A stretch of 39,270 bases of DNA from Escherichia phage 285P: sequence record NC_015249.1. The stretch is one strand, 5' to 3'. Positions within the stretch are counted from its first letter, which is position 1, and every line of letters begins with the position of its first letter. The position numbers were made by a program, and so were the translations under genes. Positions 1 through 39,270 of this stretch are shown piece after piece. Under the pieces are notes generated by a model. The model was not told the origin of the DNA. It worked only from the letters and a program-made list of their open reading frames with translations, and did no database searches.

Positions 1-145
1 TGCTTATGTTTTCAGTGACAATAGGCTTCGTCCAAAGGGGAATCACTATCTTACTCTCTTTATCAGTCTCTGAGTAATGAGAGAGACAAGTAGAATCGAC
101 TGAGTGCCTATAGTGCCTTAAAGGTGGCTGATAGTCAATAGCCTT

Positions 146-168
146 TAATGCGACTCACTATTGAGAGA
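146..168 (+). promoter_or_regulatory. T7-type phage promoter, left-most (phiOL-like); TAATGCGACTCACTATTGAGAGA
   Basis: Seen in sequence: 17/23 core match to T7 consensus TAATACGACTCACTATAGGGAGA, located upstream of the host early promoters as phiOL is in T7. Confidence 0.55.
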
Positions 169-200: not shown

Positions 201-251
201 TACTATAAGAGACTATAAGACCACTTAAAGAGACTTTGAGATTCTTTAAGA
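201..251. repeat. left-end array of ~10-bp direct repeats (ACTATAAGAG x2, ACTTAAAGAG, ACTTTGAGAT, TCTTTAAGAT)
   Basis: Seen in sequence: five tandem decamer-like repeats just upstream of the first TTGACA promoter; analogous to the short repeats near T7 genome ends. Confidence 0.5.
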
Positions 252-258
252 TTGAGGG

Positions 259-35126: not shown

Positions 35127-35333
35127 ATGTTGTCTTTAGATTTTAACAACGAGGTAGTGAAGGCTGCTCCGATTGTAGGGACAGGTGTAGCCGATGGCGC
35201 TGCCCGTCTGTTCTTCGGACTGTCCCTTAACGAGTGGTTCTATGTAGCCGCAATTGCCTACACAGTGGCTCAAATTGGTGCCAAGGTAGTCGATGTGATT
35301 ATCAAATGGAAGAAGGAGGGCAAAGATGTCTAA
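35127..35333 (+). CDS. 17.5: holin (class II)
   Basis: 68 aa; near-identical to T7 gp17.5 as recalled (MLSLDFNNE..KAAPIVGTGVAD..ARLFFGLSLNEWFYVAAIAYTV.QIGAKVVD). Confidence 0.9.
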   Translation: MLSLDFNNEVVKAAPIVGTGVADGAARLFFGLSLNEWFYVAAIAYTVAQIGAKVVDVIIKWKKEGKDV

Positions 35334-35595
35334 CGATAAATCATTAATCCAATTCCTTGAGATGCTGGATACTGAGATGGCTCAACGTATGCTGAAAGAC
35401 CTTCAGGATGACGAGAAGCGCACACCTCAACTTTATAACGCTATCGGGAAACTGCTTGAACGCCATAAGTTCCAAGTCTCCAAGTTACAGCCAGACCGTA
35501 ACATCCTTGGTGGACTGGCAGATGGACTCGAAGAGTACCAGAACATGGTAGGTGCCGATGGTCTCACTGAGGATGAGAAGTACACGCTTAACTGA
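35326..35595 (+). CDS. 18: terminase small subunit
   Basis: 89 aa; KSLI.FLEMLDT.MAQRML.DL.D.E.R.PQLYNAI.KLLERHKFQ match T7 gp18. Confidence 0.9.
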   Translation: MSNDKSLIQFLEMLDTEMAQRMLKDLQDDEKRTPQLYNAIGKLLERHKFQVSKLQPDRNILGGLADGLEEYQNMVGADGLTEDEKYTLN

Positions 35596-36139: not shown

Positions 36140-36697
36140 ATGGCTACTACAAACTCAAGAACCCGCACACTCTGGACCATCAATGGTCGCTCGCCAGACA
36201 GTCGTGATGTGTATGACCTAAACAATATTGGTATTCGTGTTGGGCGTATCGACATCCCAGCTTCGGAGATGGTTAAGGTTGAGGGCTACTCTAAGGTTGA
36301 ATACGTTATCCAACTGAGTGATGGCACCACTGAGCAACATGCTACGTTCGAGACCCTTATGTCCACTTGGGGTGGCTCCGTCGAGTCTAAACCGGGTAGC
36401 GGGTTCATGACGGTGTTCCTGAATGAGCAAAGCACTGAGCGACTCGGTATGGTTCGAATCGACGTATACAAAGAGTGGACTGGTGCTGACCCTGAACCTG
36501 AAGGTGGTATGGCTTCCTTAGTTAGTGCAACGCTTTCTGCGTCTGATAGTGAATTTGGCACACAGTTCGTGGATAGCGAAGGGAAGAGCGCTTCCGTTAT
36601 GTTCCAACCTAGTAACATCGACGGGGCTGTATCCAAGACCGACACTATCAAGGCTCTTGAGAAGCGCATCGCTGCCTTAGAGAAACCTGCCGAGTAA
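36140..36697 (+). CDS. hypothetical protein inserted between Rz/Rz1 and large terminase
   Basis: 185-aa ORF with AAGGAG RBS 9 nt upstream; no TM; C-terminal amphipathic helix (TIKALEKRIAALEKPAE). T7 has gene 19 directly after 18.5. Confidence 0.6.
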   Translation: MATTNSRTRTLWTINGRSPDSRDVYDLNNIGIRVGRIDIPASEMVKVEGYSKVEYVIQLSDGTTEQHATFETLMSTWGGSVESKPGSGFMTVFLNEQSTERLGMVRIDVYKEWTGADPEPEGGMASLVSATLSASDSEFGTQFVDSEGKSASVMFQPSNIDGAVSKTDTIKALEKRIAALEKPAE

Positions 36698-36712: not shown

Positions 36713-38470
36713 ATGTCTACTCAAGCAAACAAGAATGCGCTCATCGTGGCGCAACTTAAGGGTGACTTCGTGGCCTTCCTGTTCGTCTTATGGAAGGCTC
36801 TGAACTTACCTAAACCAACCAAGTGTCAGATTGATATGGCACGTACACTCGCTAATGGCGACCACAAGAAGTTTATCCTTCAGGCGTTCCGTGGTATCGG
36901 CAAGTCCTTTATCACCTGTGCGTTCGTCGTGTGGGTCTTATGGCGTGACCCTCAACTCAAGGTGCTCATCGTGTCTGCCTCTAAGGAACGTGCTGATGCT
37001 AACTCCATCTTCATCAAGAACATCATCGACCTGCTGCCATTCCTCTCTGAGTTGAAACCTCGACCGGGACAGCGTGACTCTGTGATTAGCTTCGACGTTG
37101 GCTTGGCGAAACCCGACCACTCACCTTCTGTGAAGTCTGTGGGTATCACTGGTCAGTTGACTGGTAGTCGTGCTGACATCATTATCGCAGATGACGTTGA
37201 GGTTCCCGGCAACAGTTCTACAAGCTCTGCTCGTGAGAAGCTCTGGACGTTGGTAACTGAGTTCGCTGCATTACTTAAGCCGCTGCCTACCTCTCGTGTT
37301 ATCTACCTTGGCACACCTCAAACTGAGATGACGCTCTACAAGGAACTTGAGGATAACAAAGGGTACAGCACAGTAATCTGGCCAGCACAGTATCCTCGCA
37401 ATGATGCTGAGGCTCTCTACTATGGGGACCGCTTGGCTCCGATGCTTAAGACTGAATACGATGAAGGCTTCGAGTTACTTCGTGGTCAACCTACTGACCC
37501 TGTTCGATTCGACATGGATGACCTCCGTGAACGTGAACTCGAATATGGTAAAGCTGGCTACACTCTTCAGTTCATGCTCAACCCGAACCTTAGTGATGCC
37601 GAGAAGTACCCGCTACGACTCCGTGACGCTATCGTGTGCGCTGTGGACCCTGAACGTGCCCCATTGTCTTACCAGTGGTTGCCGAACCGTCAGAACCGCA
37701 ATGAGGAACTCCCTAACGTTGGTCTGAAGGGTGATGACATCCATGCGTTCCATACGTGCTCTTCTCGTACCGCTGAGTATCAGTCTAAGATTCTGGTCAT
37801 TGACCCAAGTGGTCGCGGTAAGGATGAGACCGGGTATGCAGTCCTCTACTCACTGAACGGTTACATCTACCTGATGGAAGTCGGAGGGTTCCGTGGTGGC
37901 TACGATGATGCTACCTTAGAGAAGCTCGCTAAGAAGGCCAAGCAGTGGAAGGTACAGACAGTCGTCCATGAGTCCAACTTCGGTGACGGTATGTTCGGTA
38001 AGATTTTCTCTCCGATTCTCCTGAAGCACCATAAGTGTGCCTTAGAGGAAATCCGTGCTAAGGGCATGAAGGAGATGAGAATCTGCGATACTATCGAACC
38101 GTTGATGGGTGCGCACAAGCTGGTCATTCGTGATGAGGTTATCCGTGAGGACTACCAGACTGCTCGTGACCTTGATGGGAAACATGATGTTCGATATAGT
38201 GCGTTCTATCAGATGACCCGTATGACTCGTGAGCGCGGCGCTGTGGCACATGATGACCGCATTGATGCTATCGCATTGGGTATCGAGTTCCTTCGTGAAG
38301 GGATGCTTGTGGACAGCCGTGTAGGTGAAGAAGAGATGACTCTTGAGTTCCTTGAACACCACATGGAGAAACAGACCATTGGTGGTGATGCTATCCATAG
38401 CTACGATGTTGGTGGCGTGGACATCTACTATGAGGACGATGGAGACTCTAGCTGCTTCATTGAGTGGTAA
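36713..38470 (+). CDS. 19: terminase large subunit (DNA maturase B)
   Basis: 585 aa (T7 gp19 is 586); near-identity over long stretches as recalled ([56 protein letters not shown]). Confidence 0.97.
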
Positions 38471-38559
38471 TATAGATAAGTATGCGGGAAAGGTGCATAG
38501 GTAAGCACTTAGTACCGCTACGTTACCATTAAGTAACTTACTGATATACATGAAGAAAT

Positions 38560-38582
38560 TAATACGACTCACTATTGGGAAG
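38560..38582 (+). promoter_or_regulatory. T7-type promoter (phiOR-like) TAATACGACTCACTATTGGGAAG
   Basis: Seen in sequence; rightmost promoter. Confidence 0.8.
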
Positions 38583-38738
38583 GGCACCCTAAGACAACTT
38601 AAAGACACTTATAGACTGCATATGCAAAGTGCATACTTAGTGACTACTCTTAGAGACCCTTACAGTGAGGGATGATAGTAATAGTAATTACATCCCCACT
38701 ATCAGTGTAACCATCAAGTATAACAAGGAGGACGCTCT

Positions 38739-38834
38739 ATGCGCTTACTATCCGTGCTCAAGACACTGGCAACGCATCGAGTGACCTACAAATTTTCTCG
38801 CTGTACTTGCTGCTTCCATTGGTCTCGCATCTAG
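38739..38834 (+). CDS. small Cys-rich ORF (31 aa; gene 19.5 position)
   Basis: AAGGAGG RBS 7 nt upstream; MRLLSVLKTLATHRVTYKFSRCTCCFHWSRI. Confidence 0.3.
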   Translation: MRLLSVLKTLATHRVTYKFSRCTCCFHWSRI

Positions 38835-38984
38835 TGCTGAACACATCGGTGAACTGGAGACTCTGCTTTGTTCTCTACTCACTTGTGTTCCATAGACTGC
38901 TCATTGGCGCTTAGTGCGCTCTTAGTGATTATGGTCGATATACATCTTCCCTATAATCACTGTAAGAAGTCAACTGTAAGAGTA

Positions 38985-39225
38985 ACCCTTATGTACCCTC
39001 TATGGTCTACAGGGTCTCTTATGGTCTCACCTTATGATAGAGCCTCTGTGGTTAACCTTATGAGACTTGATGTACCCCCTTTAAGAATCCTACAGAAAAA
39101 TCTGAGAGGGTATCTCATAGTTCATACAAAGTGTTTCCCCCCTATGGCCTCCTTCAGTTCACCCAAAGAGTCGGCCCCTTATGGTAACTTATGGTTTACG
39201 TGAAGTCAATCCTTATGTGAGACAT
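38985..39225. repeat. right-end array of dispersed short direct repeats (C)CTTATG(G/A), at least 7 copies
   Basis: Seen: CTTATG at ~38988, 39018, 39030, 39056, 39177, 39188, 39213; typical of T7-family regions adjacent to the terminal repeat. Confidence 0.5.
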
Positions 39226-39270
39226 TGGGTTAACTCTAGGTGTTACCACTAGATATGGTGCTTAGTGATA

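What the first reader, a model, noticed from the sequence alone, without database searches (positions are those of the whole stretch)
38985..39270. Right-end array of (C)CTTATG(G/A) short repeats; window ends inside the terminal region
At least seven copies of the heptamer occur in the last ~280 bp, plus CTTAGTG repeats at 38909, 38920 and 39260. T7-family genomes carry analogous short-repeat arrays just inside the direct terminal repeats, where they are implicated in concatemer processing and packaging. The first and last ~60 bp of the window are not identical, so only one terminal-repeat copy at most is present; the assembly probably collapsed or trimmed the terminal repeat.
Basis: partly seen in the sequence, partly recalled or inferred. 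Interest (0 to 1): 0.35.

Follow-up and report, generated by a model that had tools for sequence, protein, structure and literature searches.

The report
Truncated T7-type terminal repeat with short repeats
The cluster of CTTATG repeats is real, but it is the ordinary, already described short-repeat region around the terminal repeat of a T7-family (Berlinvirus) phage, and the window breaks off inside that repeat.

Summary
Seven exact CTTATG copies, all on the + strand, lie at 38988-39217, against 0.11 expected (P about 4e-11; 0 of 5000 shuffles reach 7). The window is a Berlinvirus genome, 95% identical to Enterobacter phage PZJ0206.

Alignment with relatives whose ends are annotated (Kvp1, BA14, FE44) puts the start of the ~194-bp direct terminal repeat (TR) at window 39113 (TCTCATAG...). 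Four copies (38987-39062) therefore lie just before the TR, and three exact copies plus one degenerate copy lie inside it.

The window ends 158 nt into the TR. About 37 nt of TR are missing, including the conserved right boundary GTCCCT|ATCTGT. About 100 nt of the copy-richest array after the TR are also missing; its last copy is at window 2-8. No second TR copy is present.

T7 and T3 have the same layout with CCTAAAG in place of CCTTATG, and other Studiervirinae lineages use other CCTNNNG cores.

A conserved hairpin at 38924-38961 shows compensatory changes and sits 171 nt left of the TR start, as in T7 (190 nt) and T3 (184 nt).

What the heptamers themselves do is not established. This is a known kind of feature and of low interest.

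The parts
38560..38582 (+). Phage RNA polymerase promoter phiOR (TAATACGACTCACTATTGGGAAG). It drives transcription rightward through gene 19.5, the repeat array and the terminal repeat.
   Evidence: Sequence. It aligns with the promoters annotated in FE44 (39118-39140), BA14 (phiOR) and Kvp1.
38924..38961 (+). Conserved inverted repeat or hairpin (arms AGTGATTAT / ATAATCACT, 20-nt loop), centred 171 nt left of the TR start. The CTTAGTG copy at 38921 overlaps its left arm.
   Evidence: I6; DNA fold z = -3.96, 0 of 200 shuffles as stable. FE44 and PYPS50 carry a compensatory T/A swap in both arms. T7 and T3 have a 19-nt imperfect inverted repeat 190 and 184 nt left of their TR start, with four compensatory positions between them.
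38987..39062 (+). Short-repeat array just left of the TR, the counterpart of the array on the right side of T7. It holds CCTTATG at 38987, 39030 and 39056, TCTTATG at 39017, and degenerate copies CTCTATG at 38998 and TCTGTGG at 39045.
   Evidence: The copies at 38987, 39030 and 39056 are kept in 10-11 of 11 relatives. The copy at 39017 is TCTTAGG in 10 of 11.
39096..39112 (+). Conserved sequence just outside the left TR boundary (AAAAATCTGAGAGGGTA). It is followed by TCTCATAG, the first bases of the mature genome in relatives.
   Evidence: The same motif is AAAAATCTGAGTGACTA|TCTCACAG in T7. The pattern is found in 39 Studiervirinae contigs. TR starts are annotated in FE44, BA14 and Kvp1.
39113..39270 (+). 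First 158 nt of the ~194-nt direct terminal repeat, present as a single truncated copy. It contains CCCTATG at 39140, CCTTATG at 39177, ACTTATG at 39187, CCTTATG at 39211 and CTTAGTG at 39261.
   Evidence: Alignments. The TR right boundary GTCCCT|ATCTGT is absent from the window.
1..30 (+). Tail of the array that follows the TR at the left genome end. The last copy, GCTTATG at 2-8, corresponds to GTGCCTTATGTTT in S523 and P483. Relatives place this point 240-315 nt from their physical left end.
146..168 (+). Phage promoter phiOL (TAATGCGACTCACTATTGAGAGA), a landmark of the left end.
   Evidence: Sequence. It aligns with the phiOL annotated in BA14 (alignments).

Best explanation
The region is the right-hand part of the concatemer-junction (genome-end) region of a T7-type phage of genus Berlinvirus. 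From left to right it contains the phiOR promoter, gene 19.5, a conserved hairpin, four CCTTATG-type repeats, the left cleavage boundary (...GGGTA|TCTCATAG at 39112/39113), and the first 158 nt of the ~194-nt direct terminal repeat with four more copies. The sequence breaks off there. The last ~37 nt of the TR, the conserved boundary and RNA-polymerase pause motif GTCCCT|ATCTGTAA, and ~100 nt of the densest array after the TR are missing, as is the second TR copy. The true virion DNA is therefore about 39.6 kb.

How it works is inferred from T7 and T3. Replication yields head-to-tail concatemers with one TR per junction. Transcription from phiOR runs through the array and TR and pauses just past the TR. 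Terminase (gp18/gp19) is recruited there. Cuts are made at the two TR boundaries, and the TR is duplicated by DNA synthesis so that each packaged genome carries it at both ends.

The equally oriented heptamers most likely act as reiterated, low-information sites that mark or shape this region for a DNA-binding component of that machinery. That last step is inferred, not shown.
For: Identity and position:
- The last 871 nt are 94-97% identical to the right ends of Berlinvirus genomes, and 25 kb of the window is 95.2% identical to PZJ0206.
- TRs of 193-194 nt are annotated in FE44, BA14 and Kvp1. [quoted passage not shown]
- Alignments place the TR start at 39113 and show what is missing.

Architecture shared with the family:
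- T7 has 13 CCTAAAG and T3 has 9 around their TRs, with the same boundary motifs.
- In 39 Studiervirinae loci the heptamers sit before, inside and mostly after the TR, and the dominant repeat has essentially no minus-strand copies.

Signs of selection:
- Heptamer columns are somewhat better conserved than the spacers (0.93 vs 0.86, P = 0.008).
- The hairpin shows compensatory changes.

Literature:
- DTRs are generated at fixed positions by extension synthesis, and assemblers open such genomes at arbitrary points (PMC5557969).
- DTRs are often deleted by short-read assemblers (PMC10438801).
- Plasmids with a T7 origin, pac site and terminal repeat are packaged (PMC13236587 citing Chung and Hinkle 1990).
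Against: - No reads or virion DNA are available, so the physical ends of this particular phage are inferred by homology only.
- No experiment known to me assigns a function to the heptamers.
- Copy number and position vary among close relatives, through 12-34-nt indels and a 24-nt unit repeated four times in FE44.
- The copy at 39018 is TCTTAGG in 10 of 11 relatives.
- T3 and T7 share CCTAAAG yet package their own DNA preferentially (Yamagishi 1985 as cited). The heptamer core therefore cannot be what sets T3-versus-T7 packaging specificity.
- Heptamer class tracks gp18 and gp19 identity alike, so no reader protein can be singled out.
Confidence: 0.85

Rival explanations
1. The heptamers are functionless by-products of slippage, unequal exchange or gene conversion in a non-coding end region. 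Only the TR boundaries, the hairpin and the pause site matter.
For: Copy number and spacing differ among relatives that are 94-97% identical, and there are tandem duplications of 24-nt units and 12-34-nt indels. T and G interchange at position 6 (CCTTATG / CCTTAGG). I could not read the primary papers, and none of the papers I could read reports a function for the heptamers.
Against: The same layout, with essentially no minus-strand copies, persists across genera even though the core has changed. Spacing in T7 is a regular 13 nt. Heptamer columns are better conserved than spacers.
Confidence: 0.2
2. The repeats reflect a protein-coding gene. The 111-codon ORF at 38868-39203 spans the array and is annotated in BA14 and FE44.
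For: The ORF is open in the window, BA14, FE44 and P694, and it matches phrog_24929, a family of unknown function.
Against: The frame is broken or much shortened in 7 of 12 relatives; in Kvp1 the longest open stretch is 17 codons. The heptamers fall in all three frames. The ORF runs across the physical genome end at 39113. A PHROG of unknown function only shows that others called the same ORF.
Confidence: 0.04
3. The window's own ends are the true physical ends: this phage lacks a T7-type terminal repeat or has it elsewhere.
For: None beyond the fact that the contig stops there.
Against: Neither end of the window coincides with a conserved boundary. The conserved left boundary lies inside the window at 39112/39113, and the universal right boundary GTCCCT|ATCTGT is missing. 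Assemblies of close relatives that run across the junction contain 110-150 nt between the window's last and first bases.
Confidence: 0.02
4. The cluster is a chance or compositional effect.
For: CTTATG is somewhat over-represented on the + strand genome-wide (22 + versus 2 -).
Against: P is about 4e-11 against the rest of the window and 0 of 5000 local shuffles reach 7. The copies are conserved in relatives.
Confidence: 0.01

Closest known systems
Bacteriophage T7 terminal repetition (160 bp) with its flanking short-repeat arrays. From memory, Dunn and Studier 1983 described them and they are usually called SRL and SRR.
   Same: The order of elements is the same: phiOR, gene 19.5, an inverted repeat about 170-190 nt left of the TR, heptamer copies, AAAAATCTGAG-N4-TA|TCTCA, a TR holding more copies, then (in relatives of the window) GTCCCT|ATCTGT and the densest array. 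All copies are on the + strand.
   Different: The core is CCTTATG instead of CCTAAAG. The TR is ~194 nt instead of 160. Spacing is less regular than T7's 13-nt period. The window holds only the part up to 158 nt into the TR.
Berlinvirus genomes with annotated ends: Kluyvera phage Kvp1 (FJ194439), Escherichia phage BA14 (EU734171), Erwinia phage FE44 (KF700371); also Enterobacter phage PZJ0206 (MT625440)
   Same: They are 94-97% identical over the last 871 nt. They share the same heptamer copies at the same places, the same hairpin and the same TR start.
   Different: Those records carry the complete 193-194-nt TR at both ends, or the complete junction. The window lacks about 137 nt of the junction and the second TR copy. 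The window has TCTTATG at 39017 where most have TCTTAGG, and it has a frameshifted gene 19.5.
Reiterated terminase-binding sites next to the cut site in other phages, such as lambda cosB R sites and SPP1 pacL/pacR. This is a works-like comparison made from memory.
   Same: Several short, equally oriented repeats flank the site where terminase cuts concatemers.
   Different: Nothing here or in the papers I could read shows that T7-type gp18 or gp19 binds the heptamers. In T7 recruitment also involves paused RNA polymerase. This is an analogy, not membership.

Membership tests
T7-group (Studiervirinae) concatemer-junction / direct-terminal-repeat region | Lies at the right genome end, downstream of terminase gene 19, promoter phiOR and gene 19.5 | tested here: met
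   gp19 is at 36713-38470, phiOR at 38560-38582 and the gene 19.5 start at 38739. The order matches the annotations of FE44, BA14 and Kvp1.
T7-group (Studiervirinae) concatemer-junction / direct-terminal-repeat region | Conserved left boundary AAAAATCTGAG-N4-TA|TCTCA(Y)AG | tested here: met
   Found at window 39096-39120. The same motif is present in T7 and in 39 viral contigs, and T3 has a near-identical variant.
T7-group (Studiervirinae) concatemer-junction / direct-terminal-repeat region | Conserved right boundary and pause motif GTCCCT|ATCTGT at the end of the TR | tested here: not met
   Absent from the window even with 2 mismatches allowed. It is present in nearly all relatives that have enough sequence. 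The window stops ~37 nt before where it should be, so the failure reflects truncation, not a different design.
T7-group (Studiervirinae) concatemer-junction / direct-terminal-repeat region | The same sequence is present at both ends of the genome (direct terminal repeat) | tested here: not met
   The first and last 600 nt share only 8-11-nt chance matches. The record holds one partial copy.
T7-group (Studiervirinae) concatemer-junction / direct-terminal-repeat region | The physical ends of virion DNA coincide with the TR boundaries | not testable with these tools
   This needs reads or virion DNA. It was shown for the relative Kvp1 by primer walking (PMC2579914).
T7-type short-repeat arrays around the TR | Many copies of one CCTNNNG-type heptamer, all in one orientation, before, inside and after the TR | tested here: met
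   Four copies lie before the TR and four inside it, all on the + strand. Only the last copy of the array after the TR is in the window, at 2-8. The same pattern is seen in T7, T3 and other lineages.
Tandem repeat / minisatellite | Head-to-tail copies of one unit | tested here: not met
   Tandem Repeats Finder finds nothing in 38700-39270. Spacings range from 10 to 84 nt.
Known structured RNA families (Rfam) | A match to a curated covariance model | tested here: not met
   No match with E up to 1 in 38300-39270.

The most novel reading that the evidence does not exclude
The heptamer core appears to have been replaced in concert in all zones of the junction between lineages. T7 and T3 use CCTAAAG, Berlinvirus uses CCTTATG, and other lineages use CCTAATG, CCTAAGG, CCTGAGG or CCTTTGG. 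In two Berlinviruses (P483 and A7) the copies inside the TR are replaced by four or five exact DnaA-box 9-mers. This would fit arrays that act as reiterated binding sites for a sequence-specific protein, of the phage (for example the 89-aa small terminase gp18) or of the host, that marks the concatemer junction and co-evolves with it. No such protein has been identified, as far as I know.
Probability: 0.2. Interest if true: 0.45.

Novelty: already known. Interest (0 to 1): 0.15.

Why it matters
The main value is for annotation. It shows that this 39,270-nt sequence is not a complete virion genome. The physical left end should be at window 39113. About 137 nt of the junction and a second ~194-nt repeat copy are missing. 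The record should be re-opened at TCTCATAG and completed from reads. Biologically it adds one more example of a long-known but functionally unexplained feature of T7-like phages. The comparison across lineages (same layout, different heptamer core) is a cheap natural experiment for anyone who wants to test what the repeats do.

Tried and rejected
- **Tandem-repeat search:** nothing found, so the copies are dispersed.
- **Rfam scan of 38300-39270:** no match.
- **Terminator and promoter scan:** no terminator. One weak leftward sigma-70-like site was found, fewer than the 2.3 expected by chance.
- **Exact-pattern searches for the same phage in other collections:** the aim was to recover the missing junction. 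Viral contigs gave no hit, and two metagenome scans gave no hit.
- **Link between heptamer class and small or large terminase:** every CCTTATG locus has gp18 at least 95% and gp19 at least 94% identical to the window, and all others are at most 81%. The signal cannot be separated from shared ancestry, and no discordant mosaic was found.
- **T7 primase recognition sites ((G/T)GGTC):** 4 observed against 1.3 expected, P = 0.05. Not convincing.
- **Coding explanation:** the ORF across the array is not conserved.
- **Literature:** full-text searches for CCTAAAG or CCTTATG and for descriptions of the short repeats found nothing relevant. The primary papers (Chung and Hinkle 1990; Pajunen 2001; Garcia 2003; Casjens and Gilcrease 2009) are not held. 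Statements about them therefore rest on my memory or on citations in other papers.

Full report
**1. The observation**

The last ~290 nt of the window contain seven exact CTTATG hexamers, at 38988, 39018, 39031, 39057, 39178, 39188 and 39212. All are on the + strand. Five of them are the heptamer CCTTATG. One mismatch adds CCCTATG at 39140, and there is no copy on the minus strand.

The rest of the window predicts 0.11 copies in a stretch of this size (Poisson P = 4e-11). No other 291-nt window has more than three. None of 5000 dinucleotide-preserving shuffles of the region reaches seven.

The copies are dispersed, with spacings of 30, 13, 26, 84, 37, 10 and 24 nt. They are not tandem, and Tandem Repeats Finder reports nothing.

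Four of the seven + strand copies in the window lie in the last 671 nt (P = 3e-7). The first and last 600 nt share only 8-11-nt matches.

**2. What the window is**

The last 871 nt match the right ends of Berlinvirus genomes (Autographiviridae, Studiervirinae) at 94-97% identity. A 25-kb stretch is 95.2% identical to Enterobacter phage PZJ0206.

The region has the standard landmarks:
- the large terminase gp19 at 36713-38470 and the small terminase gp18 at 35326-35595;
- the phage promoter phiOR at 38560-38582, aligned with the promoters annotated in FE44, BA14 and Kvp1;
- gene 19.5, starting at 38739.

**3. Where the genome ends are**

FE44, BA14 and Kvp1 carry annotated direct terminal repeats (TR) of 193-194 nt at both ends. 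[quoted passage not shown] BA14 also annotates the concatemer junction CTATCTGT at the right edge of the TR.

Aligning the window's end and start with these ends shows the following:
- The TR of the relatives begins TCTCATAGTTCATA. This is window 39113, preceded by the conserved AAAAATCTGAGAGGGTA.
- Window 39113-39270 is the first 158 nt of the TR.
- In PZJ0206 the sequence continues CCTTATGACCACTATATGTAGTCCTCTCTGTGTCCCT|ATCTGTAAGTGACC..., followed by about 100 nt holding four to six further CCTTATG copies.
- Window position 1 (TGCTTATGTTTTCAGTGA) aligns with the last copy of that array, GTGCCTTATGTTTATCAGTGA in S523 and P483. In relatives whose records start at or near the left end (five of those listed) this point lies 240-315 nt from that end.

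The conserved TR right boundary is not in the window, even with two mismatches allowed. The window therefore holds one incomplete TR copy. It lacks about 137 nt of the junction (range about 110-210 nt among relatives) and the second TR copy. The virion DNA should be about 39.6 kb, in line with relatives of 39.4-39.9 kb.

Why the contig breaks just there cannot be decided without reads. Assemblers are known to open DTR genomes at arbitrary points and to delete DTRs (PMC5557969; PMC10438801). Some relatives have tandemly duplicated 24-nt units in the missing stretch, which could break a short-read assembly.

**4. The array in its family context**

I rebuilt the T7 junction from NC_001604. It reads ...AAAAATCTGAGTGACTA|TCTCACAGTG...(160-nt TR)...CTCTGTGTCCCT|ATCTGTTACAG. 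It has 13 exact CCTAAAG heptamers before, inside and after the TR. Those after the TR are spaced a regular 13 nt apart. T3 has nine CCTAAAG in the same layout.

A scan of viral contigs for the left-boundary motif gave 39 loci. In them the dominant heptamer is specific to the lineage: CCTAAAG, CCTTATG, CCTAATG, CCTAAGG, CCTTTGG, CCTGAGG or CCTATGG. In the 16 distinct junctions with enough sequence, the dominant repeat has no minus-strand copy in 15 and one in the other (L049, where the dominant 7-mer is not a CCTNNNG repeat). The copies sit before, inside and most numerously after the TR. The right boundary GTCCCT|ATCTGT is nearly universal. The window's array is thus the Berlinvirus version of a feature common to the subfamily.

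My recollection, which I could not check in the library, is that Dunn and Studier (1983) described these arrays in T7 and that they are usually called SRL and SRR.

**5. Signs of selection**

Among 11 Berlinvirus relatives, heptamer columns are somewhat better conserved than the other columns of 38980-39270 (0.93 vs 0.86; Mann-Whitney P = 0.008). Without the two phages whose TR interior is replaced, the figures are 0.96 vs 0.90 (P = 0.016). This is modest evidence, because columns and sequences are not independent.

The copies at 38987, 39030 and 39056 are nearly invariant. The copy at 39017 is TCTTAGG in 10 of 11 relatives, so T and G interchange at position 6.

The 111-codon ORF that spans the array (38868-39203) is annotated in BA14 and FE44 and matches phrog_24929. 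Its frame is broken or much shortened in 7 of 12 genomes. The heptamers fall in all three frames and the ORF crosses the physical genome end. I treat it as non-coding.

**6. A neighbouring conserved hairpin**

One is GCGC-TTAGT-GCGC at 38907-38920. The stronger one has arms AGTGATTAT (38924-38932) and ATAATCACT (38953-38961). As single-stranded DNA the stretch folds with z = -3.96, and none of 200 shuffles is as stable.

The 49-nt stretch is almost invariant among relatives. FE44 and PYPS50 carry a T-to-A change in one arm matched by A-to-T in the other.

T7 (39568-39608) and T3 have a 19-nt imperfect inverted repeat at the equivalent place, with four positions changed on both sides between them. 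The centre lies 190 nt (T7), 184 nt (T3) and 171 nt (window) left of the TR start.

From memory, Chung, Nardone and Hinkle (1990; listed in the references seen) described a hairpin end on T7 concatemers to the left of the junction. They proposed that it primes synthesis that duplicates the TR. The position fits, but I could not read the paper. The four upstream heptamer copies lie exactly between this hairpin and the TR.

**7. How it most likely works**

Shown here: the region is homologous to the T7-type junction, and the conserved boundaries and the hairpin are in place.

Taken from the literature for T7 and T3:
- Concatemers carry one TR per junction, and the second copy is made by extension synthesis at fixed positions (PMC5557969; PMC10438801).
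- A plasmid with a T7 origin, pac site and terminal repeat is packaged (PMC13236587 citing Chung and Hinkle 1990).

Inferred: in this phage, transcripts from phiOR (38560) cross the array and the TR and pause at the ATCTGTAA that is missing from the window. Terminase then cuts at 39112/39113 and after ...GTCCCT.

The role of the heptamers is the weakest step. Their strict polarity, their persistence across genera despite changes of core, and the regular spacing in T7 suggest reiterated sites for a DNA-binding component or a structural role. Against a role in specificity, T3 and T7 share CCTAAAG yet prefer their own DNA. Copy number also drifts among close relatives. My attempt to tie heptamer class to gp18 or gp19 was uninformative, because both follow phylogeny.

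**8. Comparison, novelty and verdict**

The finding is a member of a known kind and is nearly identical to published genomes. Two membership features fail: the right boundary and the second TR copy. Both fail because the record is truncated, not because the design differs.

The practical consequence concerns annotation: the genome should start at window 39113 and be completed from reads. Interest is low (0.15).

The most novel reading still open is that the arrays are binding sites for a sequence-specific protein that co-evolves with them. The concerted core changes hint at this, as does the replacement of the copies inside the TR by DnaA-box 9-mers in P483 and A7. I put this at about 0.2.

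Noticed in passing
window 38739-38914: Gene 19.5 looks frameshifted. The window reads AAATTTTCTCG where all aligned relatives read AAATTTCTCG. The ORF from 38739 therefore stops after 31 codons and matches only positions 1-19 of the 51-position gp19.5 family phrog_2193. C-runs at 39075-39079 and 39135-39140 also differ in length from relatives. Either homopolymer sequencing errors or real variation could explain this.
   Followed up: partly
L009 1284-1386 (Escherichia phage P483, KP090453) and L019 (Shigella phage A7): In these two Berlinviruses the interior of the terminal repeat is replaced by an array of TGTGGATAA. The window has its CCTTATG-type copies at this place. P483 has five exact copies and A7 four, all in one orientation (the window's + strand). 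TGTGGATAA is the reverse complement of the DnaA-box consensus TTATCCACA. The window has no such 9-mer.
   Followed up: partly
window 202-253: A second short-repeat array with a 10-nt period (ACTATAAGAG / ACTTAAAGAG / TCTTTAAGAT) lies just downstream of promoter phiOL. It may be the counterpart of the much longer repeat_region annotated at 408-540 in Yersinia phage Berlin (GACTACTTAGAG units); that correspondence was not aligned.
   Followed up: partly
window 36140-36697: A 185-aa ORF lies between the Rz-like gene 18.5 and terminase gene 19, where, as I recall, T7 has no gene. It matches phrog_20446 (unknown function) over its full length (E = 1e-128).
   Followed up: partly
L007 / L008 (Enterobacter phage PZJ0206, MT625440): The two ends of this 40,526-nt record are identical over roughly 460 nt, reaching from inside the TR to beyond phiOL. 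This is far more than the ~194-nt TR of the group and looks like an assembly overlap rather than the true terminal repeat.
   Followed up: no
window 39181-39209, minus strand: There is a weak leftward sigma-70-like promoter match (TTGACT-17-TACCAT, 9 of 12) inside the TR. T3 and T7 have an annotated leftward E. coli promoter A0 in this general area. The single match is fewer than the 2.3 expected by chance.
   Followed up: no
whole window: CTTATG shows a strong strand bias genome-wide: 22 copies on the + strand against 2 on the minus strand. Even outside the terminal region the split is 15 to 2.
   Followed up: no
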